Shown piece by piece: positions 2,480-64,000 of a stretch of DNA of 64,000 nt. The notes under the pieces were generated by a model. The model was given only the letters and a program-made list of their open reading frames with translations. It had not been told where the DNA came from and ran no database searches. Made by a program: the position numbers and the translations under genes. The DNA is from Hamiltosporidium tvaerminnensis FI-OER-3-3. Its lineage: Eukaryota; Fungi; Microsporidia. The stretch lies in assembly GCA_022605425.2 (NCBI GenBank), contig CM061248.1, positions 1,054,001-1,118,000 of the forward strand. The letters run 5' to 3'. Within the stretch, counting starts at the first letter, position 1. Each line of letters begins with the position of its first letter.

Positions 2480-4351
2480 TTGTAATTTATTTAATAATAT
2501 CGTAAATTCTTTTATATTTATCGTGATAACATAATTAATCTAAAAAGATAAGGTCTATATTTATTAAAAATCTGTTTTAAAATAGCTTTTTATAATGTTT
2601 TTCAATGTATTATACAGTATTTTTATCGTATTTATCATTAATTGAAGCAACTAAGTCTTTTATAAAAAGTGTTTATAATTATTTTAAAATCAATTTATAT
2701 TAAAGATAACTTTTTTGTTATAATTAAAGTAACAGAAACATTCTTTTCACAATTAAAAATATTTAGAATATTTTAGTTAGAAACCTCCATTGATAAAATC
2801 AGTAATATTTTTAATATGGATGATTTGCTTAATATGGTGTATCGCCTTATTTAGTCATATGGTTTTGTGTCATGTTGTATTTATATTAGACAGTCTTTAT
2901 AATTTTTAATTCATGTTTTGATTCATGTCATTGTATACGAAATTTATGTTTACAAATTTGGCTTTTGTTTATCTAATTTCTTTGTCTTTTTTTCGAACAT
3001 ATTTGGTTACAATGACTTATACCTCTTTCTTTTCTTTGTTGTCTATACCCGCCTCGTGGTCATTTGGTTTTAACTACAAACTTATTTATCAATATGGATA
3101 AATTATTACTACGTTAAAATTAGTATTTCATCGACCGAATTCAGTATTTTGTTTTTAATGATAATCTTTAATTTTACCAGTTATTTGTTTTATGACATTT
3201 CTAAAAAAATATCCATCTGATCGTAAACATAAAATTAGTTTCCATTAAGATCCATTAAGAGGTATCAAATCAATAGAAAACAAGTAATTTTTAGTTGTTT
3301 TTCCGAAGAATGAATTTCAATAAGTTTAAGATAAGAATTCAGACTGCGATATCTATTATCTTATTTTATATTAGAATTAAATCTGTTTGATTTCTTGGTA
3401 TTATTTAATCCAGTTATGTTATATCATAATGTGGATAGGTGAAGATTTTAAAAACTATCTGTTTGGCAATGAATATGTGAAAATCATTGTTGACATTTTA
3501 GTGTTGTATAAACCACGTCAAATTGATAGACCAACCACCTATAATGCCGAGTTAGAACAGATTAAATGAAACAATTGGAAAATTTCCTGTTGTTTATCCT
3601 CGACATTGAGAGGTAAAAGAGGAATGGAATAAACAAATATAATTTTATTTTACTCAAATACTTATCTCTCAAGTTGAAAAACATTCTTATCTTTCTAGCA
3701 TTGGCTGTTTCTTTCCTTCGTTATGAACACAATCAACTGATGAATTAAAGCTTTATTTTAGGATTGTAAACTTTTCTGGTCATTTTCTCTTTTTGATGGG
3801 TAGGACGTATTCACAGAGAAAATCTTAAATTTACAAAATATAAATAGAGTGAATAAAATGTCTTAATTGAACATAATGAAATAAACCACGATATCCTACT
3901 AGACGATTGATAAAAGATAGAATCAGAAGACAAGAAAAAAAGCAGAGTAAAACGAACTAAGCTTTGATTTTTTTTAATTCTATTTATTTATCCATTCATT
4001 GTTTTCTTGAGTTAATTGAAAGAGAAAGACACGGAAAATTCTTCATTTAGCGAACATAAAAACGCTCTTTGAGTATTTCAAAGCTGTCCTAAAGGCCGAA
4101 TACACGAATGGTAGAACAAATCAAGGCTTGGCATAAGTAAGGAGCCAATATTTAATTTTACTCCTGAAACCTTGTGTTATATTACTACAACTGTAATTTT
4201 ATTTTTCGGCGTTTAAACATTCCTTAATCATCACATCTTACAAAAGAAGGGGTCAAATTTTTTACTCTAAAAATTTTTAATTTTCTATTTTTTATTATTA
4301 CGGTTTCTCTATTTTTTATTATTTAACTGATTTTATTTAACCCCCTTTTTT

Positions 4352-7139
4352 ATGTCAGAAATTCAGTTAAACATCCAAAGATTTAAAAAAAATATTCAAC
4401 GCTTACGTGAGTACATTCCTCCTTCTTCCACACTTTTTGTAATTTTAGGAAAACCAGAAGATGAACAGCCATTTGATACCAATTCAGCCGTATTTTTATT
4501 TCTTTTTGGTTATGAATTTCCCGAAACAATTCTTCTTATAAATGATTCAAATATGACAATCATTACTTCACCTCGTAAAGCCTGTATATTGGAACAGCTC
4601 TATCCTCACACTTCTCTTACACTTTTAGTTCGTAGAAAAGACAATTCAAATTTAAACGAAATAAAAGAAAAAATTTCTACTTTTACATGCATAAACGTTG
4701 TAGAGAAAGAAGGACTGAAAGGTTCTTTTGAACAGAATTTTGATATTTCTTCGTATGTAGACATAAAACCGCAATTACTTCATGTATTCAAGATTAAAGA
4801 GGATTACCAACTTGAATCTATTCAAATAGCTTCTCATCTCGCTTCTTATTTTGTTGATCAAGCAAAGACTTTTATAATTAATTCTTTTACAAATTCTTTA
4901 AAAAAAACGCATTTAGAAATTTCCAATTTTTTAGAAGAAATTATGGACAAACCAATAAATATAAATTTACCTGAAAATTTACATTTCGAACAAGACAAAT
5001 TAGAATTTGCATTTACGCCTTTCATTCAGTCAGGTGAAGCTATAAATATTTCTTCTTTCACTGAAAATCCATTTGAATCTTCATATTTAGAATTACCATT
5101 TGTTATTATAAAAATAGGTGTTAGATACGATGGTTACTGTTCTGAGATTTCTCGTACGTTTCTAATTAATCCAAACCAAGAAAGAATTGATTATTTAGAT
5201 TCACTTTATAAATTAAGAGATTTCATTTCTTCAAAAATTTTACCTGGAAGTGATTCTTCTGTTCTTAAAAAAAATATTTCTGAATTTATAAATTCGTGTG
5301 ATATTTCTTTGGATGGATCTGTGTTTTACTCAATTGGTTTACTTATTAATGAAGGATTTTGTATAAATTTATTTGATGAAATAAATGAAGATTTTAAAAT
5401 TGAAAAAAATATGACTTTCGTTATAAATATAAATTCCAAAAATATGATTTTATCCGACACGATCCAAATTTTAGAAGATAAAATAATTTTTTTAACTTCA
5501 AAAAAAACCAAAGAAAATTTCATTTTAAATATTTTATTAAAAGAAGGCCGACTTAAAGTAAATGAAAAATTAGGATTTCGTGTTCGAAGTAAAGAAAAAG
5601 AAGTTGAAAAAAATATTCAAAGAAAAGAACATCAAAAAGATTTAATGAATGATTTGATAGAAGAGATGTTAGAAAAATATAAAAAAATTAAAAAAGATAA
5701 TATTGGAGATTCAGAAATAAAAGAAGAAATATTTATTCCGTATAAAAAAGAAAATTTAATTCCTCGAGAAAGAAAACTCAAAGTAGATTTTAAACATGAC
5801 AGTATCCTTATACCTGTTTATGGATATTTAATACCTTTTCATATTTCTTTAGTAAAAAATATTAGTAAAAATGAGGATGGCAGTTTTTCTTTTTTAAGAA
5901 TTAATTTTTCTACAGAAAGTAATTTACAAAAAACTGAATTTTTAAAATCTTTAACTTATAAAGGAAATACGCATCATATTGGTGATTTATTTAGAGAAAT
6001 AAATGAATTAAAAAAAGATTTTTTAATTAGAAAAGAAGAAAAAAAGAATTTTAAAGATGTGATTGAGCAGGACACTTTGGTAGAAATAAAAGGAAAGAAA
6101 AATGTTTTAAGTGATGTTTTAGTTAAAACAGATTTCAAAATGGGTTCTAAGAAAATGAAACCTTCTAATTTAGAAATTCATCAGAATGGCTTCAAATATA
6201 CCGGTGATATTTCTTTAGAAATTTTATTTTCTAACGTAAAACACTGTTTCTACCAAGAGGGAACCCTTGAAAACAGAACAATTTTACATTTTAATTTGAA
6301 CAGTCCAGTCATCGTAAATTATTTAAATTCTTCAAAAAAAACTAAAAATTTTCAATTTTTTAAAGAAGTCGGAGTAAATTCAGCCCACTGACACATTTAA
6401 ATTAAAAAATGATGAATTTATGGAAATGATGTTGGATAAAGAAGAACAAGAAAAAAGAAAATTAGTAAATGACGAATTTAAAAAATTCTGTAACAAATTA
6501 GAAGAATACGGATTGGTAGTTCAAATTTTACTTAAAAATGGATTTTACGGTGTTCCTTATAAAGAATCTGTCCTCCTCTCACCAACAATGGAATGTCTTG
6601 TAAATTTAACAGAATTTCCTTTTTTTATTTTAACTTTAAAAGAAGTAGAAGTTGTTAATTTTGAAAGAATGATTTTTGGTGTAAAAACATTTGACATGGT
6701 TTTTGTTATGAAAGACAAAATAAATTTACAAACAGTTTCTATTTTCTCAGTTGATAGTTCAGAATCTTTAAATTTAAAAGATTGGCTTGATTCTAATAAT
6801 ATTGTTTTTATAGAAACAAGTGTAAATTTACAGTGGAATAATCTTTTAAAAAGTATTTTAAAAGATCCGCTTTCGTTCTATGAAAATGGTGGATGGGTAG
6901 AATTAATGGAGAATAGAAGTGAAAGTGAAGAAGAAAGTGAAGAAGAGAGTAGTACTGTTAGTAGTGTAAGTACTGTAGATGAAGAAGTACTTAGTGATGT
7001 TAGTGTTATTAGTAGTGAGAGTGAAGTGGTAGGAGAAGAAGAAAGTGATTTTGATAGTGGAGAGGAATATGGGGCAAGTGAGGAGGATGATTGGGAGGAC
7101 AGTGAAGAAGAAGAAAAGCCAAAGAAGAGGAAGAGGTGA
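4352..7139 (+). CDS. SPT16: FACT complex subunit Spt16, split by a single +1 frameshift near 6383-6391
   Basis: Motifs LFGYEFPET, GVRYDGYCSEISRT, PFHIS.VKN, LEIHQNGFKY, FYGVPYKESV.L.PT.ECLV, VNFER, FYENGGW and acidic tail with NLS (KPKKRKR). Removing one base joins ORFs 4352-6391 and 6420-7139 (..VGVNSA[H/T]DTFKLKNDEFMEM..). CCCCC motif just upstream of the ATG. Confidence 0.95.
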
Positions 7140-7750: not shown

Positions 7751-7822
7751 TGCGTTCCCCGAGTATCGATCTCGGGACCTTTAGATCTTCAGTCTAACGC
7801 TCTCCCACTGAGCTAGGAACGC
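7751..7822 (-). tRNA. tRNA-Phe(GAA)
   Basis: Reverse complement GCGTTCC-TAGCTCAGTGGGAGAGC-G-TTAGA-CTGAAGA-TCTAA-AGGTC-CCGAG-ATCGATA-CTCGG-GGAACGC-A folds as a full cloverleaf; a TTTTT Pol III terminator follows. Confidence 0.97.
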
Positions 7823-9868: not shown

Positions 9869-9964
9869 ATCAATTGATTCTTCTTTTATTTTATATAAAA
9901 TTAAAGTGGAGAGAGGATAATCTAAAAGTGAGAATATTCTATTAAATAATGTAAATATATTTGG

Positions 9965-10170
9965 AGAAATTAGTTATCAGTAAATAAAATTAGTTATTGT
10001 TAAATATAATTAGTTATTATTATAATAAGGTATTTATTATTATAATAAGGTATTTACCAATAAATAAAGTAGTTACTACTAAATAAAGTATTTACCAATA
10101 AATAAAGTATTTACCAATAAATAAAGTACTTACCAATAAATAAAGTACTTACCAATAAATGAGGTAGTTA
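9965..10170. repeat. ~18-nt degenerate tandem repeat (AAATAAAGTATTTACCAAT-like) downstream of PIK1
   Basis: Directly visible repeated units, best conserved at 10081-10160. Confidence 0.85.
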
Positions 10171-10310
10171 TTTAAAATAATGGAAAAAATGGTAAAAATA
10201 TTTTAGCCTAGAATTTTATCTTAATCTTATTTTTTTAAAAATAATCTAACAAATGTTAAAATGTTATATTTATAAATATTCTAAGTAGATTATAAATTTT
10301 TGTTAAAAAA

Positions 10311-11023
10311 TATCACATCTTTTTTAAAACAGTTGCAAGTGTTATATTTGTTTTCATGACATTAACGCAGTTCTAGGTTTAAAATAAATAACTGCTACCC
10401 CAAAACTCCATCATTAACCCCTGCGATACCTACGTCTCAAAGCCTTTCATCTACCAGATGTGTAAAACCTAAATAATAGGCGAGGCAGTTGCCTGGAGTT
10501 CGTTAATATCCGTCGCATGGAGTGTGATCGAAGGCCGAAGCCCCCCCTGGGCTCCCCCAAGACTATGCAGCATTCCCACTTACTCTACACTTTCAGAACA
10601 CAAGAAACTTCTAGCTAAGATATATTTCAGAGATTTACATGGGGTCCACCTAGAGAGTGCAATGTCATACCAACAGGTATAACCTGCTACTTAGCTTTCC
10701 TGGCTTTATATGGTTTTTTGTTTTAAATCTCCAGGCGCCAAGTCTTCTAACCCGAGTGAGCCAGGCTAGGTTTCCATGCTTTTACATGGCAATTACCTAC
10801 ATGTTCAGCTGCGGTCTGCAATCTGGTTACATAAAAAACTACAAATAAATTTGTACAAAAAGTTTCTCCATTTCTCAGACATCTTCTCCTCATAACAACT
10901 CCCTGGAACAACCAAAGATGTAATGTGGTTTTATTCCCACCAAAAATCCAAACAATGACCTCACACCAGTTTCATACACTCATTGCCAAGCAGAAAGTTT
11001 TTTATGTGGTTATCCTCCCTCCA
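10311..11023 (-). repeat. Dispersed ~710-nt structured non-coding element, copy A
   Basis: Highly similar to 40309-41021, colinear with 52427-53119 (inverted) and partially with 45415-45815 and 29193-29415. Strand inferred from the C(UUCG)G loop and G-U pairing. Confidence 0.9.
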
Positions 11024-11169
11024 ACATTATTTAAGTAGATATAATTATTTTATTATATAATTTTAAACAAATTTCTTTTTGGATCTTGATTACACAGAAT
11101 AAAAAAAATAATCACTAACCGCTCTTAAATCCCAATTAAATATTATTATAGGTTAATAGTTCTTTATTT

Positions 11170-12500
11170 TCAATATTTTTTCCCATTATTTTACGCTTCA
11201 AAGTCTCCCTCTAAATTCGACACTGTATTCATCTTTATTAATGGTTCCTCCGGTATGGTTATCCCATCTAAAATATTAAAGAATAAAAATTTGTATTTAA
11301 TCGTTAGACACTATATTCCGCTTATTCATTTGCTTTAAAGTAATTTATGGCTGTTTATCCGACGCGGCTCTATAATAACACTAGATGACGCACTTTATAG
11401 CGCTCTTAAGATTTTAGGTCCGACTGAAGTTTTCTTTGTCCATCAAAAGAAATTGACCGACCGTCGTCATATACACTATCAATTTGAATGTATTCCTCTA
11501 CATCCATAAGATTTTTGCAGTCTTTTGAGAAAAGTCTTATGGTATTTCGTTACAATATCGTCCTAGATCATCTTTTACAGAAGTATATCTTAACTAATTT
11601 ATAGTTAAGACTTAACTCATTTCCAATAGATCATAATTATTAAGCTTCTCCGTTTTAACTATTTGAAGTGGATCTTAGAAAGTAAAACATTCTTAAATGA
11701 GGGTTATGTATTCGATCGTCTGTCCAAAAATAATATACCAGGCTTATTATTCCAAATTTAGACATCAGTTGATATCCTATTCTCTATACCTGACTTTGCC
11801 TTCTGCTTATTATGAATTTTTTGAACTGGGTAATTCCTAATGCGTTTGAAGATTTATATTTATATCATTTTATTAGGAGCAAATGTATGTATCGGGTCTC
11901 TTCAGTATTTTGTTTAGTATAGCCATGACCAACTATTTTTTCTCATCTCTTTGCTTAACTTTCTACTGTTTACCAAATTTATTACAGTGTTTAACATACT
12001 TTTTGCCCTCCGGAATATATTTTAGCTTAGATATAGCAGCAAAACAGTTTCTTATATTCCATTTTCTCGCCATTTAGACGATCAATAACACTTAAAAGCT
12101 CCGTTTCTTTTACGTATATTAATTTTTATAAGGTTTTCGTTTTTTTAATTTAATGTAGAATTTTGCAAGTTGAGAAGCTACAGAATTATTTTATCTACTT
12201 ATAAATTAAATCGAAGAATTTTCTAAAAAACAATTTGGAAATTTTTTGTATTATCAGCTTAAGGATTTATGGTCTTCGGAATTATATTTCTTAACCTTTT
12301 TTTAACAAATAATTCTATACTGGCAGAATCATATTTTAACTTCGACTCAAATTGTAAGGCCACTTCTAAGTTCCGAATCAAAAAGGTAAACTCTCTTTCC
12401 AACTAGTCCGAAGTGTATATTTTTTTTGCCAACATCGCACACACTGCATCATTCAACTTAAGAGTGCACAACCTGTCCAAGTCAAAGCAGTTCTATATGA
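11170..12500 (-). mobile_element. Decayed 3' part of R4/Dong-like RLE non-LTR retrotransposon
   Basis: Nucleotide similarity to 60960-62340 (regions encoding WDGIVTKYHK, YIQSIV, NNRPD, QLAKL); many stops. Confidence 0.7.
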
Positions 12501-12837
12501 TAAATAATTAACGATATTGATATTGTTAATTTGCAAAAATAACATAGTTTTTCATGCTATCTCTATACGACGAAGCTTTCCCCCCTTTCTATTTGCTTTC
12601 TCAATGCCTATTATAATGATTAACAGGAAAATCACCTTTGATATCTTTTTTATGCTCATCTATTGAAAAAATCAACATCTAAAAAATGGGAGTAAAATTA
12701 CAACACAGTTTTTTTGTCTTCGATCTCCCAGTTTTAATTCTAAAAATAATAACATTTAAAAACCATTATTCGTCAGCTCTTGTAAAAAGAGCAATAATAA
12801 AATATATAAAAAAAAATATATCAACTCAATAGAAGTT

Positions 12838-13461
12838 TTAATTTTTTAACAAAATATTTAAAAAAATGCGTATCATAAAAATATTCACCAGTATAAAAAA
12901 AATGGAAAGACCAACACTAGAATATTGAAATCTTTACTTCCTCTCATATACTTGTAAAATATAAATAGAATTATCATATAGTAAAGGGAAAAAACAATTG
13001 TAAAAATGTCATTATTATTTGACATTACTGATAAAGATATGAAAAGTGTATTTTCAATCAAAAGCATGAAAATATATTTAAATTCTAGCTTTAAAAACGC
13101 AAATGTTGTTTCGATGACTGTTAGATGATTCAAGATTAAAAAATTCGAATGCTATTATCATTATCAAATTCTGGTATGATCAAGGGCTGAATTAGTGTTC
13201 TTTCGGCTAGAGAATAGGTATTACAACAATATTGTTATTTATACGATTTTGGTCAAGTTTGCTAATACTTTGTTCACTTGTTGATTTAAAAGCATTTGCT
13301 CTCGTTCCATTCCTATAGCTTTTATTTTCAGATATACTACTTAAAATCGGACACCTATTCATTCCCAACGATTTATTTGTTACTATATATATTACTGTCA
13401 AAAAAATCAATTTTAATTTATTTAATGTTATCTCGATTTCCTTTTTTTTATCGCATATCAT
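12838..13461 (-). pseudogene. Frameshifted paralog of the 1907-2479 membrane protein
   Basis: Shares KSLGMNR, LKLEFKYIF, FSLYY, YKYMRGSK and upstream DNA; broken into ORFs 13207-13461 and 12885-13133. Confidence 0.75.
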
Positions 13462-13599
13462 TATTAATTAAAAAAGATAAAGGTTTTTTTATCATAGCTT
13501 CAAAATTTCTTTTAATAAGCTTTGTCTATAATGATTTTAATTTATAACTGCAAATCAGGACTTTCTTCGAACAGTAAAATAAATTATCCTCAGATAGCA

Positions 13600-18150: not shown

Positions 18151-19459
18151 AAAATTACTTGCATAAGGAAATATAAAAATCACAGTATCCTTTGTAATAA
18201 ACAAATATTACAGTCTATTGATCACAAAAAGTAGAATTTGTAGAAAAAATGGTTCAATCTCTAAGTCAGCTCTAAGCCATTGAGCAAATAAGTTGGTAAG
18301 TAACAACACGTTTAGATTAAAAAAAAATAATTTTAAAACAATATATACTTTTTTAATTATACAAGAGAAAATGGGATAGGAGTTAATCGGATCTAAGGAA
18401 ATGGTTAGAGTCACGGGGTTCTGGTGTCGTTTTTTGCCTTTTTCAATCTTTGATATAAGCCTCGGAACATCTATTTCTTGCTTTAGTTTGTTTAACCGCG
18501 AACTATTTAGGTTATTTTCTGAGTCATTGTTGTTATAATTTAAATCCAATATGTTTTGTGTACGTGTAGATTTACCATAAACGACAGAAGTGAATTACGT
18601 CCATCGAAACTGCAAAACCTATGTAAAAGAACAAACAAGAATAGAATATATAGTTAAAAAATTTCAAATAAATATATGTTTAAATTTTAAAAATAAATAA
18701 AAAATATTTTTGAGCATTTCTAAATTTCCTTCCAACATTAAAAATAAATATGTCTTTATTTTTAAATTATGAAATAATTTAAACCGAATTAAAATATATT
18801 TCGCCATGCATATTTTTTAATAGCTCGCTTCTTCCTTATGTAAGAAACACAATCTAAGAATAAATCATAAATTTCCCAAAAAAACAGGTTTTCCAAATAG
18901 ATTTTTCTTTGGATTGGTTAAGTTTTCAGCCCAACGCAACCATGTAATGTTTAAGTAAATAAATTTTAAATCAAAATCAATTTATATATTCTCTTAAAAA
19001 ACCAATTTTTGACTTTTTATAGTTTTTGAAATAAACTATAACGTTATTCGAAAAGATTTTATACATCTAAATTTCTCTAAATCTACATTGTAGCAGAATG
19101 AATGTATATGTAGAACAGGTGGATTTCAATATAAAATGAACTTATTTGGTTGGTTTGCCAACAAATCACGTAAACTCTTACAATAAACCTCCACCCAATA
19201 CCGATCGATTACTTAATATTTTATTTAGAGATTATTTTATAATTTGTACTTGATAAAAAAAAATATTGTATTTCTTTCTACATAAATAAAATAAGTAAAT
19301 TTGAACGACTTATATTCAAAAGACATTAATTGATAAAATTCGATACTAACTTAGAATATAATATAGCAAATTAGGTTTGTCGTAAATTATTTTTATAATA
19401 AAGTAATTTGAGATATACATTTATACAATAAAATTCTGGGTTAACAAATTTTATCTTTT

Positions 19460-21260
19460 AAATAATTATTTTTACTATTTCAACCACTTAATTCTTTTCT
19501 TCTAAATCCGAGTTTTCATTTGCATTAAATATGTTCCTCTGCTGTGATTATGCTATCTAAAATAAGAGGTAAAAGACTTTTTCTAAATTCCGTTTTAACA
19601 CCATCTTCCTCGTTGTCTACTTGCTTTAAAGGATGTGTTGGTTTTTTATGCATCGGAGCCCCTTAAATAACACGTAAAGATGCTTTTTCCTAGCTCTCTT
19701 CGGCATTTAGCCTGTATTCAAGTCCTCATCGTCGACCAAAAGAAATTTTTTCGACCGCTTTTTGAGTACTATAGATTATATACCTGCCTCTACATTCATG
19801 GGTATTTGTAGTCTTTTAACAACATCTTATGGTATTTTGTTCCAATACCGTTCCAAGTCATCACATAAGGAATTATCTTTATACAACATTTATGAATGAT
19901 GGCGAACTTATTTGCTAATAGTTCGTACTTCTTAAGTTTCTCTGTTTCAACTATTTGAAGAGAGTCTTGGGATGTGATTCCTAATTTAATGAGGGTTATC
20001 CTATTCTGTCTCTTGTCTCAAATAAATATATCGGGTATTTTACACCGAATTTTGACATCTGTTTTTATCCTAGTGTTCACTTTTACCTCTGTACGCTCAT
20101 TATCAAAAAAATTTTTTACACCGATCGACTCATAATTTGTTTTAAAGACTTGAATAAATATTTATTTAGTAGGATTAAGTATTTGCATTGTGAAACTTCA
20201 TTTTTTGGTCTAGTATAGTCACTCTAGCTTTTTCTCGCATCTTGTTGCTAAGAAGTCTACCGTTAGACATATTTAGTTGCTGCGTGTGAAATACCTTCGG
20301 TACTCCGGCAATCTACTTCTATCTTATATAGAACAGAACACTGCTTGATCAGGTGGTCTTATACTTCCTTTCTTTAACCATCTATAAGAGTCATTCACAC
20401 TTACAAGCTCGTTATTACTAGCTTTATAACATTGAATGTAGTTTTCGGTTTTTGATTTCGTTATATAGGTTAGCTAGTTGAGCTTCTTCCAATTTCTTTT
20501 TTGTGACTTCCTCTTCTAACTCGTATTTAATTTTTAAAATTTTTTTTTTAGTGAAAAGTGGGTTTTAATATTATTGTCAACCTTTAGGATTGCTGCTCTT
20601 TTGGTCGATGTATTTTTATGTTTTTCAAGACAATCCAAGTGTTGCAAAAGCATCTTCGCTTTTAAAGTCTACACTATATAAACTTCTTCATAGTTCTTTA
20701 CGAGGAAGGTATAGACGTTATTTCATCCTAGGCGTAGATGTATTTACTCTGTACTGGCAGTGCACGCACTGCATAATCTAACTTAAAGAAGTCAGTTGTT
20801 CCAGGCAAGGTACTTCTATTTGGCAGTGGGTGGACGATATCGGATGTTGATATTTTGCAGAAAATAATTTTTTAGCATTCTATTTTGTTGCGAAAAAGTT
20901 TTTCTACTCGTGCTTTATGTTTTATTGTACTTCCTCGAACGACATACATCTTAGGATTCCTCTGCTATTTTCTTTGGTTCTTAAGTATTTTTAAACACCT
21001 TTTCATTGAAAAAGAATAGCTGTATCTTCACAACACGGGTTTTTTGTAGCCGATTTCTCTTTGTTTATTTCTAATCGTATATTGTTCATTCACCTCTTCC
21101 GTCATTTCCTATAATGCTTGTTCATCTTTTTCAGGAAGCAGAGATCATCATATAATAATATTATTGGCCGCACGGGATTCTGCATCATTCTTTATTGTCA
21201 GCTTTGGGTTTTTTTCATTAAGCTTTCGGCTCCATAGATCAATACACAATAAAAAGAAAT
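19460..21260 (-). mobile_element. Decayed, 5'-truncated R4/Dong-like RLE non-LTR retrotransposon
   Basis: Clear DNA similarity to 60960-62340 (GITSQDSLQIVETEKLKKY, WLKKGSIRP, RLYLPRKEL) extending into the RT C-terminal half; multiple stops and indels. Confidence 0.9.
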
Positions 21261-24200
21261 AAATACAAAAATTTATACAAAGAAAGAAAATATTTAGGTA
21301 TTTTTATGAAGAAGTTGTAATAAAAGAGAATTTAATGGTTTTCTACATTTTTTAAACAATTAATAATATTTTCCATCATTTCAAGTCAAAAAATATAATA
21401 ACAAAAAATAATAGCATATTTTTTTTAGAAATTAATATAGTTAAGGGGTTCCCCAAATAGTAAGAAATCCAGTTAAATTTATTGGAGAAATAATCAATAA
21501 AAAGACCAAGTGTTTGTCTCTTATTTTGCTTTCAACATTTTTGTATATTTTATTTTAAGAAATGTTTCTTCAAATAGATAGATTTTGTTAAAAGCGTAAA
21601 TAAAACTATGAGAAAATGCATGAACTTGGTGTGAATACGAAGCTAAAAAACTCTTTTCCAATTCAATTAATTTTGAATTCAATTATTTTTTTAAAAAGCA
21701 TTTGTGCATTGCATATCTATTACTTACAATTAAACACCGGTACTAGCCTTTCAAGATCAGCCGAAAAGAGATTTAAAGAATTTAAATATAATTTTTTGCA
21801 AAATGAAACCAGAAAAACTAAATCAAAATATATTTTCAAAGTATCTAAAGTTTTTATTACAGGTCTTATAAACAGCTTCATTTTTTTTTACTAAATATTG
21901 CGCACCTATTAAAATGAATAAGACATTTGTTCGAGCCTTCGCGTAAAGAAGACTATTTTGATAGAATTTTTAAATATGATTCAAAATTCGGGTTCTGTCT
22001 TTTTTTTATTTCTTTGAGATTTAAAATTAAAATGCTTCAATAATTCGGATTAATCCGTACAAAAAAACAACTTCCATACTCATTTATTGCTTTGTGAATC
22101 AGAAAGAAGCTGAGTCATTTCAGAAAAAATTTCAATGATTGCAATAACTTTAAAACTGCATATAAATGTTTATACGGCAAGTTAGCGAACTGAACTAGTC
22201 TGTTGTAAATCATCTTCCGAAATTTCGTAAATTTACTCACGTAATTGACGAGTTTTAAGTACGTGCAATTCTATATAGTTGAAGGTTAAATGACTGGTAT
22301 ATAAGCCGTGACAGTTTCAAGTATACTCCATATAACGATTTTTGAGAAATAATAAGGTATTATAAATGATTTTGAATTACCTTAATCTCCTGATTGAAAA
22401 TATAAGAGTAACAAAAACATATTTATTTACATTATATCTTTCCATATTTAGTTGTAATATAATTTGAATATCACCTTCTATGATTTTTCGACTTGATCAA
22501 AAATATCTTGTCTATTGGCCGTGCTTTGAATACTAAAAAGATCTAATGGTTCTTTACAAACCTTCTATTTGTCAATAAAATTTTCGAATAAAATAAATTT
22601 TCAGTAATATTTGAAATTTTATTTAGCACATCCAGAGCTAAATAAAACTATTCCAGGTTCTGATTTATTTCGAATGTAATGTCTAAACTCTTCTTGCTAC
22701 TGTGTTTGGAGATAAACAAATAATTTAAAATGTATTGAAACCTTCAAGGCAATTTTCCCAAGATTTCTTCTTTGATAAGATTTGAATAATTCTAATTCTT
22801 TAATTAGTTTACCATGTTTCCCAAAAAATTATTGTTACTTAAAAATTTTATGTATCTATCATCTTGTCCAGCTCTATATTTCTATAATAAATTATATTGG
22901 AATTTACGTCCTCGTTTTTAAGCTTGAAATTTCGTTCCTAAAATCTACAGACTATTCCGAGATTCAGAGAATGATTAGTTTAAGAAGAAGCATTTGATAC
23001 TATTGATTCGCGAGATATGTAGTTTCCTCAGACAAAAATTGGTATTACTACATAAAGCAAAAACAACACCACTTCTGTTTTTCCTTTCTATATTCATTAT
23101 CTATTTTGTTTTGTCGGTACGAATATTAAGTTAAATTAGGGAAATAAGAAAATACAACGCATTAGCTAAAAAGAATATCAAAATTTGTTTCTGAAATGCA
23201 GGTTTGTTTGCTGGTAATACGCTCTTAATCTTTTAAAAAAGAAAGTGTATGTTTTGCCGAAGCCTTGCCAATCAAAAGAAGACATGTCTCTGAGACGCCT
23301 ACCCTTAACGAAGCTCTAATTCCCCGTGGATTGTATTCCATTCATAAAGAAAGAAACAATCTAATATAAAAATAAAACGAGATCACAGTAAGGTACACCA
23401 CTAGATTTTAACTAAAAAAAATAAAGGAGCGTTTACTTAGCAGTTGAAGAACAACTAACACAACGTAAAGTTTATAAAATAAGTGATCTTTATATCTCCT
23501 AAGACTCAAAGCCATAAAACTTTTTTTTGATAATTTAATATTGTACAATAATTTATATTGCAGGTAATGATAAAAATCTGTTTAAAAAATAACTAACCCA
23601 TAATGCTATGTTATTTTTTTGATAAGCACGAACAGCCTAGCATATTAATCGAAACCCCAGACTTTAGATCTGAAAACTAGAAATATTAAGCCAAGCAGGA
23701 GAGAATGTATTTTATTTATCATCAGATTAAATACTAGTCGAATTGCGTACTTGCAAGTCAATATAAGAATTTATAGAAAACCAGTCTTTAGTGTCGTTTT
23801 CTTGTTAAATCAGGCAAAAAAAAAACGTCATTCTGATGCTATGGGTTACCATTCATTTTTAATCAAATATAAGAATAAAATAAAAACCACCTAGCTTAAG
23901 ACCAATAGAGCAAGTGTTTAAAGAAATAGAATAAATAAAAAAATAATTCGCATAGATATTCCTTTTTTTATAAGAAAACAGCAAAAAACCCTTAATTCTG
24001 GTTTTTTTATAGTAATTTCGTGTAAGCTATACACAAATATTTATCTTCTTCTTACTATTTTAGAAAAATATTTATATTATTTTTAAGATTGTGTCGAGAA
24101 TAACACTTTTAAAAACAATCTGATTTAATTTGTATTTGAAACATGCAAAAATGATATCTAAAGATTTTTTTTAGAATGATAATTACACTTAATATTCGGT

Positions 24201-24429
24201 AGTTTATAAAAAAACTATAAAGAGGAGAAAGTCTACAAAATGCTAAAACTTTTTTCTAAGAGCATAGTTTGTATTTTTTTTTATAAGTAAAATGAAGCAA
24301 ACGATTGAACTTTATGATAATTAAATTGTATAAGCATAGAGACCTAGCCTTCCTCCTTTAGATTAGGAGAAAGGGAGACAAAGAAACGCAGAAAAGTATA
24401 TATTTTATAGAGCTTGTAAAGCTAGTTTC

Positions 24430-24560
24430 CCCCACAATGCCGGAAAAGAATTGGCTTAGAGTATACTCTGCTTGTGTAAGAGGCGACTAAAAAGGACCGG
24501 TCCCCCGGTTTGGACTTAAGGCTAACAACTCACCTTTTAAAACTACACTAATACTAAACT
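24430..24560 (+). mobile_element. Isolated RTE-type 5'-leader fragment (non-autonomous/SINE-like)
   Basis: TGCTTGTGTAAGAGGCGACTAA followed by GGTTTGG..GGCTAACAACTCACCTTTTAAAA, similar to GGCCTAACAACCCTACCCTGTAAAA at the head of the RTE at ~42366. Confidence 0.5.
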
Positions 24561-50161: not shown

Positions 50162-52426
50162 GTTTATGTAAACAAAACAAAATTAAATAGAAATGATTAA
50201 ATCTTAGAATACAGAAAATCTATAAATTTCCTAAACAAAAATTTAAAACAAAAAGATATTTCTTAATTAATATTACCTTCACTACCTATAAATTCAATAA
50301 CTCAAATAAATATTTAATACATTTTATTGGTAAATAAAGTTTAAGTGTTTATGGTAAAACATAAATTACAATACAGAATATTCTATTATCAATTTGAAAT
50401 ATTTTTATTTTAACTTTAAAATGGATATTTTTTAATTCTTGTAAAAAATTAAAGATATCTTTTTATCTAATATATCTTATTAAACTTTATAAAAATTAAA
50501 TTGAATTAAAAGATCTATTATGTCTTTTTCTACTATAATATACATATTAAAATATAATGCATCTTTTTGGTCAATTTTATTTGCAAAGCGATCCAAATTG
50601 TGTTTAAATTTAATTGTATTTATAAAAACTTTAAATATATGCAAATATAATAAAATATAATTGTGCAGATGAACTTTTCAAAAAAAATATTGTATAGATC
50701 AATACTTTTATAAACTTAAGAACTAAATAATTATTTTGTTTAATGTATAAAAGGAACTGATAATTTTGTGAAACTCTTTACTAATGAATACAAAAGTTAT
50801 AGTTGGTTTTTAATAGGATAATTCATAAAAATTTAATTTCTAATTTTTAATTATATATTTTTAAGATATAATTACGCTTTTTTCTTTAAAATCTTAAATA
50901 TATTGATAATTTACCAAGAAAAATATCATCGATCTAAAAGGCCGTTTAATTGTTTAGAAATCTTTTTGTTTAATCTATAATTTGAAATTTTGAATTTATA
51001 TCTTTTTTATACAAAGTTTATAAAAGTTTTTGATTGAATAAGAGTAAAAACCATTCTATTAATTTATAATGCAAAAGATATAATAAAGTGTTACTATTTT
51101 ATTTATAGAACCATGTAGTATATTTTAAGATATTGAAAATAATCTTGTTCTAAATGTTTCTTTTAAGAAACAAATGAAAAACATTCATTTGTTCATTTTC
51201 GACACTGAGAGGTAAAAGAGGAACAGAATAGATAAGCAATTAAGTATGTTTCTTCTAAGATAGCAAAGAGACGCTTCACTCCGAGGAACGCAAGCAGAAT
51301 GTGGATAAAGACCAAAATTGATACCTTTTAAAGCAAAAATTCAAACTTCAAAATGTGTTTTCTGATGGTATAATTGTTTAAATGAGAAGACCAAAATTAA
51401 TTTAAAGTTATTTACTTAAATGAAAAGATCAAGATTTATAGAAAAGTTTTTCTTAAATGAAAAGATCAAATATCAATCAAAACTTTTCATTCAAAAGAGA
51501 AGAAAAAGCTTTTAAAAATTTTTACTACAAGAAAAATACAAAATATTTTCTCAAATTTTTTTTAGTTAAATCACCTAGTGTGTAATTATATACTTAACAC
51601 CCTAATAACATTATATTTTTACCCTAAAAAGTTTAATTAAGATATTGTGGAGTCAATAAATCCGAGCTTTCATAAAATGTCTAATTTTCTATATTTTTTT
51701 GAGTCAAAGAAGTTGAAAAATAATTTAAGCTTAAATAAACGTAGAAAGGTTATTCTTATTCGACTATCTTATGAAAGTAAAATGTTTCAAGACATAAAAA
51801 TGCTCTACAAGTAAATCGAAGAAAATCAAAACGTAGAATTATGTAACTAAAAGAAATATACTTCCTCAACACTAAAAGATATAAGAAGACCTGATAATTG
51901 AGTAAGAAAAATACGTATTTAATTATATAACAACCTAATAAATATCGGATACAGAATATAAAGACAAATCTCAAATTTAAGGAAAAAATTAAATATTAAA
52001 TATAAATAATTCGAACTCTATATAATTTCCTTGAATTGATTAATAAAATATAAAAAAAAAAAATAAACTATTAACCCTTAAAAATAAAAGTTTGATGAAT
52101 CAAAATTTCTTTCTTCTTTTTGCACAAACTGAAGCAAAATATTCGAAAGCAAATACCTTTTATTATTTCTCAATGAGGAAAGAAATGTTTTTACTTCTAT
52201 AGGCGTTATCTTATTCCATCTCTTATCTAAATATTTATATTGGGTCTATTTCAAACAATCTTGCGATCAGTTTAATATTTAAATGACTAAAGGCTAATAA
52301 AAGACCTTTTTTTTCTTAGTTATAAAACTTTATTCGTGCTATTACTTTAAATCAATTAAACATATTTCAAAAACTGTAAAATATTTTAAGTTTTTTTATA
52401 GAATTTAATTATTATTTAAATTCAAG

Positions 52427-53119
52427 TGAACAGAAGATAACCACATAAAAACTATCTGCTTAGAAATTAGTATGTAAAATTAGTGTTAAAATGATTGTTT
52501 GTATGTTTGGGGAGAATAAAAGCACACTAATCTTCGGTTATTCTGAGATTTGTATGAGGAGGTGAAAGAAATAGCGAAACTTTTTTTACAAATCTATTTT
52601 GTGGTTATGTACTAAATCAACGCAGCTGAATTTGTAGGTAATTTCCATGTAAAAGCATAAAAACCTAGCCTTGCGCACTTGAGTTAGAAGACTTAGCGCC
52701 TAAGAGATATAAAAAAAACCTCCTTGGATCCGGGGAAGTTAATTATCGAGTTATACATGTTTTTATGATATTGCACTTTCTAGGTGGACCCCATGTAAGT
52801 CGCCGAGATACGTAGTTGCAGAAGTTCATTGTTTAATGAAAGTGTAGAGTAAGTGGAAATTCTACATAGTCTCGGGAGATCTCGGTGTGGGTTCTAACTG
52901 GAATCACACACCATGCAACGGACATTAACGAACTACAGGCAACTTCCTGGGCTATTAAATAGGTTCTATATACCCTTTGGATGAAAGACTTTGGGATGTA
53001 GATATCTTAAGATGTACTAGTGGAGTTTTGGACGAAAAGTTATTTGTGCTAAACCTAAAACTGAGTTTATTTCCTGAAAAAAACTATAACCATTACCATT
53101 GTTTTAAAAAGATGTGATA
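52427..53119 (+). repeat. Dispersed ~710-nt structured non-coding element, copy C (opposite orientation, more diverged)
   Basis: Colinear with the reverse complement of copy A from GATAACCACATAAAAAC to AAAAAGATGTGATA. Confidence 0.9.
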
Positions 53120-53582
53120 TTTTTTAAATAAATATTAAATGAATATAAGGGTTTAAGACAATTTATAATATAATCATTTTAAAAAGGTTCAGGATAATGT
53201 GTAATAAGATGATTATAATTTTATTACTGCCCACACTCTTGAAATAAAATTTTATTTATCTCTATTACTTATTTCCTTAACTCATTTTTTTCAAGGAAAA
53301 CAAATTATTAAAGGAAGAATGTAAAATTTAGTCGTTTTTTCGATTATTATACCAAATTTCGAAAATATTTTATTAAAAAGTATTTTGTATTCGATAGCTT
53401 GAAATTTCAATATAAATAATAAATCTGTAAGTTTAATTTATCTAAAAGTACATGCTATTCATTGAAGTATGGATATTTTATATTTTTATGAAATATTAAA
53501 TAAATGAGATAGAATAAAATAGAGTCTTTAAAAGCAATTTTTTGCTTTACTTCCAAATGAAATATTTGGAAGCAGAAATAAA

Positions 53583-58560: not shown

Positions 58561-59968
58561 TAAAGTAAAAATACCTTAGATCTTTCTATGTAAATGAAGA
58601 AGGTTTTTTTTCACATTTAAATAAATTTCTTAGATGATACACATCAAATTGCTTTTTAGTTAAATCACTTTAATCTGCGTTTTGTTATTAAATTTTAGAC
58701 AGAGGCTGTACAAAAAAAACTAAAAATATAGTTTGCATCGAAAATAATAAAATATATGTTTCTTCAATATAAATATACAATATTAAAAATATTTATAGTT
58801 TAAATTTCTTTACTATATCAGAGCTTATAAAAAAAATTGGTACACATTTTATATTTATCTGTATCTACTTTTATTAAAGAAGCTTAAAATACATGTAAGA
58901 AGATTGGGCTTTTAGCTTTGAATAATACAAAGAATGATTATTTAATGCGATAAATAAATTTCAAACTATAGTTATATAGAACTTGACATGATTTTAAGAT
59001 TTAAAGTGTATTTATATTACATTTAATCTTTTGTTTATATATTTTATAGGCTTTATATACATTTACAATAAATTGTCAAAGATTTTAAAGTTTTCGCAAA
59101 AAATATTTCATTTTTTATTTGTTCAAATGAGATATTTACTTTGTATCTATAAAGTAAAATATCATCAATAAATATTACATAATTTAAAAAAGTTGATTTA
59201 AATACTTTACTGTTCAGGAAATCAGAATTTTACCATGTTTAACTTCGGAACTGGCTCCCCTACAAAAAAAATACATCTACATCCTATAAGATATCTACAT
59301 ACCAAAGTTTTTTATACAAAGATGTATATATTCTTTAATAAACGAGGGAGAGTATCTGTATCTCTTGATGCCCATTGTCTTGAATGTGTTGTAAAAACAA
59401 CCCAACTTAGGCTCCCTCACTACCAACAGCACCATTGCGTACTATACACAATTAGAGCCAAATTAAGTTCTATATACAATAAATTTCCGTGATTGACATC
59501 GAATCCATCCGTTATTTGCGGATCATGCAAATCTTTACAACCTGCTCTCTGGGTTTCAAAGATATATTTTTGTATCTCATGTATCAAATCTTCCTTCGCG
59601 ATTAAAAAAAGCTATATTTTCATCCTTCGGCAATGTAAACACTTAAAATTCGCTTCTATTCTACAATCTAACTATATAAAAAATCAAAAGCTACGTTAAA
59701 CGAAATATTTTAAACTTTTGCGTCACTTTCTACTTTTTATACTAATTCTTACCGAAGGAAGAAAAATTGATTATAAATTTCATACCAAAAAAAATTATAA
59801 AAGTTTTTACATTAAACTACTCGATCATAGCAAAAAATAAATTTTATTGTAGGGTGCTTCCTGTCTAATATTTCTTATCAAATATAAATTTTCCAAAAAA
59901 ATATATTATTTATAAATTAATTTATTAAAAAAACAATTTGTTTATAACAATTAAAACATATAACACCC

Positions 59969-60879: not shown

Positions 60880-62346
60880 TCTTAACACATTTGTTTTTAC
60901 TAAAATATGGAATAATAATTTATTTAATAAAATTCTGGGTTAAAATATTTTTACCATTTTTATATGTTTTCTTCTACCTCTTTAACCACTATTGTCTCTT
61001 CTTCCAAATCCGACTCTTCATTTATGTTATTGGTCGGTTCCTCTAAAGTGGTTCCTCCTTGTGAAATAAGGGGTGTATTATTTTTTTGTTTTAAAATTTT
61101 AACACCATCTTCCTCTCTTTTCGCTTCTTTTAAAGGGGGTATTGGTTCCTCATGCATCTCTGATCTCATAATAACACCCATTGACGCTCTCTCCCAGCTC
61201 TCTTCAGCATTGAGTCCTGACTCAAGTCCTCTTCGTCGATCAAAAGAAATTGTTTCGACTGTCTTCTTAAGTACTATAGACTGAATGTATGCTTCTACAT
61301 TCATGGGTATTTCTAGTCTTTTAAGATGAGATTTATGGTATTTTGTCACAATACCGTCCCAGGTCATCACATAAGGGATTATCTCAACACTACACTTATA
61401 AATAAGACCCAACTCATTGGCTAGCAGGTCATACTTCCTAAGTTTTTCAGTTTCAACTATTTGAAGTGAATCTTGGGAAGTGATTCCTACTTCAATGAGT
61501 GTTATCTTATTCTTCTTCTTATCTAAAATAAATATGTCCGGTCTGTTATTCCGAATTTTAACATCAGTTTTAATTCTGGTGTCCACTCTTATCTCTGCAT
61601 ACTCATTATCAAGAATTTCTTGAACTGAGTGACTCCTAATTCGTTTTGAGGACTTAAACTTATATCTATTTAGAAGAAGTAGGTGTAGGCATCTAACCAC
61701 TTCATTATGCCGTCTGGTGTAATCATGGCCTAGCATTTTTTCACATCTAGTTGCCAGATGATCTACAGTCTTACCAGACTTCCCGCAATGTTGACACACA
61801 CCATCTGCTCCCCAGAATACATTTCTATCCTGGATATAGCAGAACACAGCTTCATTTCGTGGCCTTATATTTCCTCTCTTTAACCATCTTGAAGAGTCAC
61901 TAACACTCACAAGCTCATTTTTTCTTGCATTATATAACTTTGAATGGAGTTTTCGTTTTTCTATTTCATTATATAGTTTTGCAAGTTGAGCTTCTTCTAA
62001 ACTTTTCTTAGTGACTTCTTCTACCAACCTGTACTTTACTTTTAAGAATCCTTTTATTAGTGCAAGATGGGTTTTATTATTATTCTCCACCTTGAGGATT
62101 GCTGCTCGTCTAGTTGATATTTCTTTACTTTTTTCCAGACAATCCAAGAGTTGCAGAAGCATATGTTCGCTTCGCAACTCAACACTATGTAGGTCTCTTC
62201 CAAGTTCTGTTCTAGGAAGGTATAAACGCTCTTTACATCCTGGGCGGAGATGTATCTTATTCTTCACCAACACCGCACGCACTGCATCATCTAACTTAGA
62301 GAAGTCAGCCGGTTCAAGTCGAAGTACTCCTATGTGGTAGTTGATT
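60880..62346 (-). mobile_element. Young 5'-truncated R4/Dong-like non-LTR retrotransposon with open 3' ORF (thumb, CCHC knuckle, PD-(D/E)xK endonuclease)
   Basis: ORF 60960-62282: RLYLPR..LGR.L, CQHC..TVDHLATRC, RRHNEVV, RPDIFI, LIEVG, K..KY. Similarity stops abruptly at ~62346; RT core absent. Confidence 0.93.
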
Positions 62347-64000
62347 CTAAAATATGGATACGAGTATTTATTTTTAATTAAATCCTTTTTTTGTGCAATG
62401 AAATAACGTTACTACTTAATACAGCAACTATAAAGAGCCCGGGTATTTATATAAGTCTTTTTATGGCTCAGCTTATGATTCTTTATAACGTAAAAATCTA
62501 TCAGAATTTCACAAGCCAGAATGACAGCTAAACCAAGTAAATATTTTATCGCGAATCTATTCCACAACCAAATTAAATAGAAAATAATATTAGTCTTTTA
62601 ATGAATCAATTCTTTCTTCGGTGAACTTTTTTATAATAAGAGTTCATGTGTTTTTTGTTTCTATTCATATTTAGGAAAGGAAAAAATATATTGTATTTTT
62701 GACAGCTAAAAATTTTGTCAAAAGCAAACTGATGTGATAACTATGTATTAGAAGAATTAAAAACCGGTAAATGTTTCGAAATTTATCTTCCAAAATCAAT
62801 CACAGTTTTGAGCTTAAAATGTGCGATAATAAAATTAATATTTTTAACAGTTTGACTTGGATATCTATACAAGTTGTAGCTCATATGAAAAATGAAGCGG
62901 ATGTATACTTCATATATTTAAGATTTAATCTTGGGGGTGGGGTACAACTAAGAGAATTTTATAGCAATAAAAAGACGAAAAAAGGTAAAATGATTGGCTT
63001 TTATGAGAAAAAACCTTGGAAAGCTGTTTTTAGAAGTGGCAATGGATAGAATTTTAATATTAAGCGAACACAATCAGAAAATTGTCTACAAAAATTGTAA
63101 TAAGAAGTATAATTATTTTAAATTATTTCAAATCGGCTACAAAATGAATGATTAAAAGCTTTTTTCTTATTTTACGCCATTTTAATCTTTAAAGGTGTTA
63201 TTTTATATGGGTTTATTCCTGAATTTATTGCTTAATGATCGTTTTTTTTTTGTTTTTTGAATAATTTGCATTTCTTAATATAAGAAATATAAGAAACTAC
63301 AAAAAATAGCATAAGAAAAGAAATGGTGGAAACAAATGGAAATAGATGTATTGAACTAACCTAATATATTATTTTTATAGTTTTAAAGTGGAAAAAAGGT
63401 GATTTTGGAACGGATAGACATTTTTTTTAAGGTAAAATATGACAATCAAATAAAGCCGCCAGAAAAATACTCAAAAAAATCATAAAGATGGCGAATAGGT
63501 TAGAAAATCTTTACTATGCGTAGAAAAAAACAAGATTAGCTTAGGGAAAAACTGATTATTTGCAAGAAGATATAAAAGTTTACTTAGATTCTGATTCCAT
63601 TGATATGAATTTATTTTAATATGATCTAAAATTCCAAATTTTGTAAATAGATCATTATCCTTGCAATTGAGATCTCACAGGCAACTACGGATATATAAAA
63701 TGGTCAAAAATAGAAATAATCTATTGAATAAAAGTGACAATATTTGATAAATAGCTTCTTGTTTATAAAGGAAAGAGACTAAAATCAACTCGAATGATAT
63801 TATTTGGAAGCCGAAGAAGCCACTTTAAGAATGTCTTAAAATAGCGAAACAATATTTTAAAAGTACTAAAATACATATTTCATCTATCATACACTTGGTT
63901 TTTTAAAGAGTTTGTGCGCTAGCAAAAAACCAACATGAGTCAGAAAGGAAAAAAAAACGTTGAATTAAATAAAAGGCGTATTTTAATTAACACATATGAA

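What the first reader, a model, noticed from the sequence alone, without database searches (positions are those of the whole stretch)
10311..11023. Dispersed ~710-nt non-coding element whose hairpins show compensatory changes: candidate novel mobile structured RNA
Seen: copies at 10311-11023, 40309-41021, 52427-53119 (inverted), 45415-45815 (diverged) and 29193-29415 (partial), GC-richer than the flanks, with no conserved ORF and no TSD. Comparing A with diverged D, stems survive while sequence changes: CCTA-aataa-TAGG (10468-80) vs CTCA-tttga-TGAG (45469-81); minus-strand UUGGG-GGAG-CCCAG (10547-60) vs UUAGG-AAAG-CCUAA (45545-58); GCCUGG-loop-UCGGGU (within 10747-69) vs GCUUGA-loop-UCGGGC (45747-62). 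Also a C(UUCG)G tetraloop (10531-44) and CCAUG/CAUGG and CAGGU/ACCUG hairpins. Copies A-C start at the same TG ten nt before ATAACCAC. Inference: a multi-copy RNA selected for fold (non-autonomous retroelement, large ribozyme or IRES-like leader). I cannot assign it to a family I know.
Basis: partly seen in the sequence, partly recalled or inferred. Interest (0 to 1): 0.85.

Follow-up and report, generated by a model that had tools for sequence, protein, structure and literature searches.

The report
High-copy SINE-like repeat of a microsporidian
This 730-base non-coding repeat occurs eight times, whole or in part, in this stretch of a water-flea parasite's genome and has very many more copies elsewhere; it is likely a passenger element copied through RNA by a retrotransposon's enzyme, and two of its hairpins look conserved although selection for an RNA fold is not established.

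Summary
The repeat is real and larger than reported. The window is Hamiltosporidium-like microsporidian DNA. It holds eight copies or fragments. Public runs show a very high copy number and sharp ends at the same bases across dozens of unrelated AT-rich flanks. There is no codon signal, protein match, Rfam match, terminal inverted repeat or TG...CA terminus.

'No TSD' is wrong for copy A, which has a degenerate 20-30 bp direct repeat (1 of 397 null pairs scored as high). Copies B, C and G have none. Two neighbouring RLE-type LINE copies have 27-34 bp duplications, and three head-to-tail pairs are spaced by 21-34 nt.

Best reading (0.6): a SINE-like non-autonomous retroposon moved by a LINE through target-primed reverse transcription, working like Entamoeba EhSINEs. 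A shared tail with the LINE was not significant, and RNA could not be tested.

The hairpins are as described, and two covary across six copies. Tests over all stems are mixed and folding z-scores are weak (-0.2 to -1.9), so 'selected for fold' stays open.

The parts
10298..11025 (-). Copy A, full length (about 728 nt); likely RNA sense is the minus strand
   Evidence: ends from contig depth and loose ends
10276..10305 (.). 3' copy of the degenerate direct repeat flanking A (core 10276-10295; up to 30 bp if the AATAAA-like junction motif is counted)
11026..11055 (.). 5' copy of the direct repeat flanking A (core 11026-11044)
   Evidence: score 12, 1 of 397 AT-rich null pairs
10996..11007 (-). 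5' arm of a 12-bp internal inverted repeat (partner 10829-10840); also pairs in B, C, D in shifted registers
   Evidence: sequence; duplexes; not recovered as a consensus helix
10548..10559 (-). 4-bp hairpin with purine-rich tetraloop, 96% of cells paired in six copies, two pairs with two-sided changes
10467..10481 (-). 5-bp hairpin, 87% of cells paired, three pairs with two-sided changes
10303..10327 (-). [quoted passage not shown]
40294..41023 (-). Copy B, full length, 91% identical to A; no flanking duplication; abuts another multi-copy stretch (40002-40285)
52426..53129 (+). Copy C, full length, about 76% identical to A and B
45411..46233 (-). Copy D: 5' module 46044-46233, about 180 nt of extra sequence, core 45411-45864; old, single-copy at 90% likeness
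29193..29494 (+). Copy E: 5' module, inverted copy of the 5' 35 nt (29384-29418), 3' piece 29421-29494, core missing, A-rich run behind
59169..59880 (-). Copy F, decayed (about 59% to A); 59169-59693 by profile search, 5' part by multiple alignment only
24091..25029 (+). Copy G, decayed full length with a 265-nt insert (24380-24644)
3448..3519 (+). Copy H, 5' fragment
   Evidence: E 6.7e-5
60914..62347 (-). 5'-truncated RLE-type LINE copy, candidate mobiliser family; about 27-bp duplication at 62347-62373 and 60900-60925
19419..21255 (-). Older 5'-truncated LINE copy; weaker 32-34 bp duplication at 21249-21280 and 19395-19428

Best explanation
This is a high-copy, non-coding interspersed repeat of a Hamiltosporidium microsporidian that is likely a SINE-like non-autonomous retroposon. 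Shown: it is non-coding, abundant, has fixed ends in unrelated AT-rich flanks, has no terminal inverted repeats, and one copy carries a long flanking duplication. Inferred: the minus strand of copy A is transcribed; the RT/endonuclease protein of a non-LTR element, probably the RLE-type LINE family in the same window, binds the RNA; it nicks an AT-rich target near an AATAAA-like motif; the RNA 3' end pairs with the nicked T-rich strand and primes reverse transcription; a second nick 20-34 bp away leaves a long target-site duplication. Inserted copies then decay (C, D, F, G, H). The short conserved hairpins would be what the source lineage kept for transcription, RNA stability or RT binding; that role is untested.
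For: Abundance: 14,699 of 203,365 contigs of run X14 and 24,711 of 4,979,603 of X1 lie on 9900-11400, with summed depth 3e5-1.3e6 over the element against 20-507 in the left flank in X14. Fixed ends: 61 and 70 contigs leave the element at 11023, and 32-43 contigs per run at 40297, into flanks that agree only 0.47-0.5. Duplication at A: 1 of 397 null pairs as high. LINE copies: the best match to the 3' flank within a 400-500 nt scan falls at the 5' truncation point in 2 of the 3 long copies scanned, plus none convincing for a fourth short one. Three different head-to-tail junctions have spacers of 34, 34 and 21 nt counted from the terminal T-run (my count from table 5c), the size expected if the spacer is a duplicated target. 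Candidate mobiliser: RT proteins 81-98% identical to the window ORF are named from H. tvaerminnensis, with RVT_1 and nearest solved relatives L1 ORF2p and R2. Precedent: EhSINE1/2 are 0.5-0.7 kb, in hundreds of copies, with 18-24 bp TSDs in young copies and no known precursor RNA (PMC2996970, PMC3716655, passages).
Against: Only 1 of 4 copies tested has a significant duplication; B, as young as A, has none. I had seen the 9-bp core at A before testing it, so that test was not blind, and no null was computed for the LINE duplications. The 3' 80 nt are not significantly like the LINE tails (best p 0.034 of 12 pairs). There is no poly(A) or simple-repeat tail in A-C, no 5'-truncation gradient in depth, no tRNA, 5S or 7SL head and no B box inside a copy. 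No empty site appeared among the joints shown (15 of 228, 15 of 201).
Confidence: 0.6

Rival explanations
1. Non-autonomous rolling-circle element (Helentron/HINE or DINE-1-like), copied as single-stranded DNA by a Rep-helicase; the hairpins would be DNA structures.
For: Fixed ends with A before and T after in the loose-end majorities; CACAT sits at the same distance (17-21) from each end; an internal inverted copy of the 5' region and a 3' stem-loop; 3 of 4 copies without a duplication; four Helitron families are listed for H. tvaerminnensis (PMC4202319, passage).
Against: HINE/DINE-1 have 11-15 bp subterminal inverted repeats, an inverted repeat 3-22 bp from the 5' one, and no target modification (PMC4067079, passages). 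Here the symmetric match is 5 bp (9 bp in E), the inner repeat is about 155 nt away, and A has a long duplication.
Confidence: 0.12
2. Pseudo-LTR or retrozyme-like derivative of a Penelope-like element.
Against: No hammerhead or other ribozyme family at E<=10 in A, B or D; no Penelope-type ORF noticed beside any copy; spacers differ between the three pairs.
Confidence: 0.08
3. A functional host RNA (large ribozyme, IRES-like leader or other structured RNA) whose gene family is kept by selection on the fold.
For: Two hairpins with two-sided changes; excess of such changes between A/B and D on one strand; consensus energy of A-D beats 40 of 40 column shuffles on that strand; D and part of C sit at the same place in another organism label (11,953-nt contig of X16).
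Against: Copies carry many 1-nt indels, large inserts and deletions; the signal vanishes without A (11 of 40 shuffles as low) and with all six copies (5 of 40); B folds like its shuffles (z -0.24); shared old loci are expected for fixed neutral insertions.
Confidence: 0.07
4. Solo LTR of a Ty3/gypsy or copia element.
For: Length; copy A alone can be read as TGTT...AACA.
Against: The family ends are (G)GTGGAG and AAATAAAG, not TG and CA; no 4-6 bp duplication; dozens of junctions at both ends run into unrelated flanks rather than one internal region.
Confidence: 0.05
5. MITE or other non-autonomous cut-and-paste DNA transposon.
For: Copy E looks bounded by about 30-bp inverted ends over 225 nt; a 9-bp exact core flanks A.
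Against: Full-length copies have no terminal inverted repeat; E continues into the family's 3' piece; the repeat at A extends to 20-30 bp.
Confidence: 0.05

Closest known systems
EhSINE1/EhSINE2 of Entamoeba histolytica (PMC2996970, PMC3716655; passages read)
   Same: 0.5-0.7 kb, non-coding, hundreds of dispersed copies in AT-rich intergenic DNA, long TSDs that decay with age, no recognisable precursor RNA, a LINE in the same genome.
   Different: EhSINE1 shares about 70 bp of 3' end with EhLINE1, has internal 26-27 bp repeats and is a known polyadenylated transcript. Here the shared tail is not significant, there are no internal tandem repeats and transcription is untested. No sequence comparison with EhSINEs was run.
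R2 SIDEs, RIME and NARTc: deletion derivatives of LINEs (PMC3414825 and PMC3383444, start of abstract only; PMC2996970, passage)
   Same: Non-autonomous, moved by target-primed reverse transcription, precise 5' end.
   Different: They share ends or their whole length with the partner, and R2 and L1Tc/NARTc carry a 5' ribozyme. No DNA or protein match links this element to the LINE copies in the window, and Rfam finds no ribozyme.
Canonical tRNA-, 5S- or 7SL-derived SINEs
   Same: Short, non-coding, high copy, TSD.
   Different: No such head, no B box, and internal runs of 5-7 T on the sense strand that would stop RNA polymerase III (textbook knowledge).
DINE-1/HINE Helentron derivatives (PMC4067079; passages read)
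   Same: Internal inverted repeat of the 5' region, 3' stem-loop, T-rich surroundings.
   Different: No 11-15 bp subterminal inverted repeats, wrong spacing of the inner repeat, long duplication at A.

Membership tests
Non-autonomous non-LTR retroposon (EhSINE-like) | Short, non-coding, dispersed in high copy number | tested here: met
Non-autonomous non-LTR retroposon (EhSINE-like) | Variable long target-site duplications | tested here: inconclusive
   significant in 1 of 4 copies; spacers of 21-34 nt in three tandem pairs fit
Non-autonomous non-LTR retroposon (EhSINE-like) | 3' end shared with a partner LINE | tested here: inconclusive
   best p 0.034 of 12 pairs against the one LINE family in the window; other LINE families not available
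Non-autonomous non-LTR retroposon (EhSINE-like) | Transcribed as a unit-length RNA | not testable with these tools
   no RNA holder listed; 0 reads laid in X24, no test
EhSINE1/2 proper | Internal 20-27 bp tandem repeats | tested here: not met
   no array inside any copy among 29 rows
Canonical SINE | Head derived from tRNA, 5S or 7SL with a polymerase III promoter | tested here: not met
   0 of 8 B-box matches fall in a copy
Canonical SINE | Poly(A) or simple-repeat tail | tested here: not met
   A-C end in a fixed AT-rich motif; only E has an A-rich run
LINE deletion derivative (SIDE, RIME, NARTc) | Clear homology to the partner's ends or body | tested here: not met
   no blastn or profile hit on the LINE copies; 64 RT proteins give no hit below E 0.1 in any copy; only this LINE family was tested
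LINE deletion derivative (SIDE, RIME, NARTc) | 5' HDV-like ribozyme | tested here: inconclusive
   no Rfam match; no descriptor search was run; by eye only partial motifs
Helentron/HINE/DINE-1 | 11-15 bp subterminal inverted repeats | tested here: not met
   5-bp symmetric match, 9 bp in E
Helentron/HINE/DINE-1 | Palindrome near the 3' end | tested here: inconclusive
   weak AT-rich stem-loop
Helentron/HINE/DINE-1 | No target modification, insertion in TT | tested here: inconclusive
   A has a duplication, B, C, G do not; no empty site seen
Solo LTR | TG...CA termini and 4-6 bp TSD | tested here: not met
MITE | Terminal inverted repeats and fixed short TSD | tested here: not met
Conserved structured RNA family | Significant covariation in a deep alignment | tested here: inconclusive
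   six copies only

The most novel reading that the evidence does not exclude
The element is a retroposon of a new structural class: a 730-nt RNA with no tRNA, 5S or 7SL ancestry and no LINE-derived tail, whose conserved core fold lets it cut itself out of read-through transcripts at the fixed 5' G, or recruit a LINE reverse transcriptase by shape alone. It would then carry an undescribed self-cleaving or RT-recruiting RNA domain, amplified to hundreds of copies in one of the most reduced eukaryotic lineages.
Probability: 0.1. Interest if true: 0.8.

Novelty: new member of a known kind. Interest (0 to 1): 0.42.

Why it matters
A quarter of the H. tvaerminnensis genome is interspersed repeat classed as neither retroelement nor DNA transposon (25.45% 'other', PMC10542269). 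This family would explain part of it: two copies at 90% identity in 64 kb extrapolate to about 700 in 21.6 Mb, if the window is typical. The word SINE does not occur in the main text of the five Hamiltosporidium-related papers checked, so a SINE-like partner of an RLE-type LINE would be a new item for microsporidian genome expansion. It would also be a second protist-style case of a SINE without a polymerase III head. With hundreds of copies of graded age, the question of selection on the fold is directly testable on the published assembly.

Tried and rejected
Whole genome: none held, so all alignments rest on window copies.

Rfam: whole window at gathering and at E<=5, and A, B, D at E<=10, gave no match near a gathering score apart from one tRNA-Phe.

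Decayed protein: 24 frames of A-D with stops as X gave no Pfam hit above cut-off (best E 0.008); one frame of A gave 4 candidates and no hit; one frame of B gave 0 hits in 1.84 billion representatives; 8 of 9 copy pairs show no codon phase, one has p 0.027, while 2 of 3 RT control pairs do.

Relatives elsewhere: an exact 25-mer found nothing in viral, metagenome or prokaryote contigs; a degenerate pattern gave 5 loci, none matching the profile beyond the pattern, so they are chance.

Expression: no RNA holder listed; X24 laid 0 reads, no test; X20 laid one 189-nt contig and may be DNA.

The null shuffled each copy on its own and overstates significance; I replaced it by the joint column null. 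The five helices were picked from these sequences, so its shuffle counts are not probabilities.

A 10-nt likeness between the element's 5' end and the LINE's first codons and a possible duplication at the near-full-length LINE and at E are too short or too low in complexity to count.

Resemblances to group I and II introns, SRP helix 8, 5.8S rRNA and an HDV-like core were considered by eye from recalled motifs and dropped, since they are not conserved across copies.

Earlier notes of this scan: nothing found. The script machine was lost, so the wider duplication test with a null for the LINE copies was not run.

Full report
Context. No whole genome is held. The window is 27% GC and gene-sparse, with intronless eukaryotic genes (SPT16, PI4 kinase, Chs7). 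Its RT-like ORF at 60960-62408 matches proteins named from Hamiltosporidium tvaerminnensis and H. magnivora at 81-98% in the best cases. I take the source to be a Hamiltosporidium microsporidian, a parasite of Daphnia (PMC4202319, table passage). The published assembly is 21.64 Mb with 39.56% interspersed repeats, 25.45% of the genome being 'other' (PMC10542269, passages).

Observation. The five reported copies are there. A profile from A-C finds three more (F, G, H), a 5' module for D, a 3' piece for E and an inverted copy of the 5' end inside E. Identities to A are 91% (B), 77% (C), 71% (D), 59% (F) and 61% (G) over aligned blocks. All quoted stems read as stated. The sequence is non-coding: stops in every frame, mostly 1-nt indels, no codon phase in 8 of 9 pairs, and no protein match. 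Rfam has nothing near threshold.

Copy number and ends. Twenty of 24 listed runs hold the stretch, under five organism labels and eight studies. In run X14, 14,699 of 203,365 contigs lie on 9900-11400; summed depth is 3e5-1.3e6 from 10308 to 11021 and 20-507 in the left flank. Summed depth overcounts, so it gives no copy number. Window density suggests about 700 young copies and some 2,000 or more in all (extrapolation). Contigs leave the element at the same bases: 61 and 70 at 11023, 32-43 per run at 40297 and 9-16 per run at 41012-41022, into flanks with low agreement. Read on the minus strand of A, the family starts at (G)GTGGAG and ends at a T-run followed by AAATAAAG. Depth is flat along the element, so 5' truncation is not common. 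D is at single-copy depth at 90% likeness, so it is an old copy and not a young subfamily. One 11,953-nt contig of X16 runs from the 5' end of B through D into C with 131 other letters, so these insertions are shared with that organism label. No empty site was among the joints shown.

Target duplication. With the refined ends, A is flanked by a degenerate direct repeat (10276-10295 and 11026-11044); 1 of 397 AT-rich null pairs scored as high, while B, C and G scored at or below the null median range. The repeat extends to about 30 bp if the AATAAA-like junction motif is counted. I had noticed its 9-bp core earlier. The youngest LINE copy has a 27-bp repeat that ends exactly at its 5' truncation point and also starts with AAATAAA. 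A second copy has a weaker 32-34 bp one. For the near-full-length copy the scan's best hit was not at the ORF start, and a fourth copy gave nothing convincing. Three distinct head-to-tail junctions between element copies appear in the runs (table 5c). Counted from the terminal T-run their spacers are 34, 34 and 21 nt. That is what a second insertion into an existing duplicated target, or unequal exchange between duplications, would leave (inference). Duplications of 20-34 bp are typical of target-primed reverse transcription and not of LTR elements, DDE transposons or Helitrons (established knowledge); young EhSINE1 copies have 18-24 bp (PMC2996970, passages).

Partner. The window holds five pieces of one LINE family. 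The protein has RVT_1, a C-terminal CCHC knuckle and a PD..D/E-K-like motif visible in the sequence (motif names recalled), and its nearest solved relatives are L1 ORF2p and R2 proteins. I call it RLE-type; assignment to the R4 clade is recalled and untested. The element shows no profile or blastn match to it. The last 80 nt align by eye with one LINE tail, but the best of 12 pairs has p 0.034 against composition-matched DNA. The partner is therefore likely, not shown.

Structure. Folding z-scores are weak: A -1.73 and B -0.24 on the element strand, -0.04 and +0.08 on the other, A core -1.90, D core -1.57. RNAalifold on six cores gives an unfavourable covariation term and no consensus for the 5' module. 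Counting every shared local stem, A or B against D has 8 two-sided changes against 2.4-3.2 expected on the element strand (p 0.00-0.03; these four tests are not independent). A or B against C has 3 against 2.6-2.9, and C against D is significant on the opposite strand. With a null that moves whole columns, 3 of 18 settings reach p<0.05 for two-sided changes, two on the element strand and one on the other. Consensus energy beats 40 of 40 shuffles for A-D, but not for B-D (11 of 40 as low) or all six (5 of 40). Two short hairpins stand out: 10548-10559 (96% of cells paired) and 10467-10481 (87%) hold 7 of the 11 two-sided cells among five hand-picked helices. The UUCG hairpin and the 10747-69 stem do not covary. 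A 12-bp inverted repeat links the 5' end to a site about 155 nt inside, and pairs in shifted registers in C and D. This is a hint of constraint on the source lineage, not a demonstration.

Mechanism. Shown: non-coding, abundant, fixed ends, no terminal inverted repeats, one long duplication, long duplications at neighbouring LINE copies. Inferred: transcription of the G-rich strand, binding by a LINE protein in trans, priming at a nick near an AATAAA-like site helped by pairing with the RNA 3' end, and decay after insertion. How the fixed 5' end is made is open. An internal polymerase II promoter or self-cleavage are the candidates; R2 and L1Tc/NARTc use 5' ribozymes (PMC3414825, PMC3383444, start of abstracts). 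Internal T-runs argue against polymerase III.

Comparison and novelty. It works like EhSINE1/2 but fails two tests for canonical SINEs (head, tail) and one for EhSINEs proper (internal repeats), so I file it as SINE-like and not as a member of either. It fails the subterminal-repeat test for Helentron derivatives (PMC4067079, passages), and the terminal tests for solo LTRs and MITEs. 'SINE' has 0 occurrences in the main text of PMC10542269, PMC7313128, PMC4202319, PMC6944219 and PMC12449221; of PMC7313128 I also read part 1 of 4. PMC13702014 lists SINE as a RepeatMasker category for microsporidia without detail (two passages). Searches listed no description of such an element by title or abstract start. 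Repbase and Dfam could not be searched and supplements were closed, so the family may already exist as an unclassified RepeatModeler consensus.

Verdict. A real, abundant and apparently undescribed repeat, most likely a SINE-like retroposon (0.6); new member of a known kind; interest 0.42.

Noticed in passing
window 31398-35120 (+): Near-full-length decayed RLE-type LINE; its ORF starts like the MGRRKK start of P0001 and P0022, with little room for a 5' UTR.
   Followed up: partly
window 30782-31384 (-): UBA1-like stretch (ThiF and UBA_E1_SCCH domains) lies head to head with that LINE and looks incomplete.
   Followed up: partly
window 10170-10230 (+): Short stub matching the LINE 3' end, with summed depth 4e4-1.8e5: a very common, strongly truncated piece, 70 nt from copy A.
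   Followed up: partly
window 40002-40285: Stretch next to the 3' end of copy B is itself multi-copy (depth 146 against 19 in X16); could be another repeat or carried-along flank, which would explain the missing duplication at B.
   Followed up: partly
window 3568-3631 and 51167-51230: Another short dispersed repeat (80% identical; depth about five times background); fragment H lies just before the first copy.
   Followed up: no
window 24380-24644 and 45865-46043: Inserts of 265 nt in copy G and about 180 nt in copy D; the one in G falls in the A-rich loop of a predicted helix.
   Followed up: no
window 4352-7139 (+): SPT16 reads in two overlapping frames (4352-6391 and 6378-7139); a frameshift or an assembly error.
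   Followed up: no
window 1866-2610 and 12801-13545: Paralogous membrane-protein-like ORF pair at 69% identity, no Pfam match for the first; the second has no long open frame.
   Followed up: no
window 26421-28746 (+): Two consecutive ORFs in different frames (495 and 219 aa; no Pfam match for the first) that look like one leucine-rich gene with a break.
   Followed up: no
window 7751-7822 (-): tRNA-Phe(GAA) gene.
   Followed up: no
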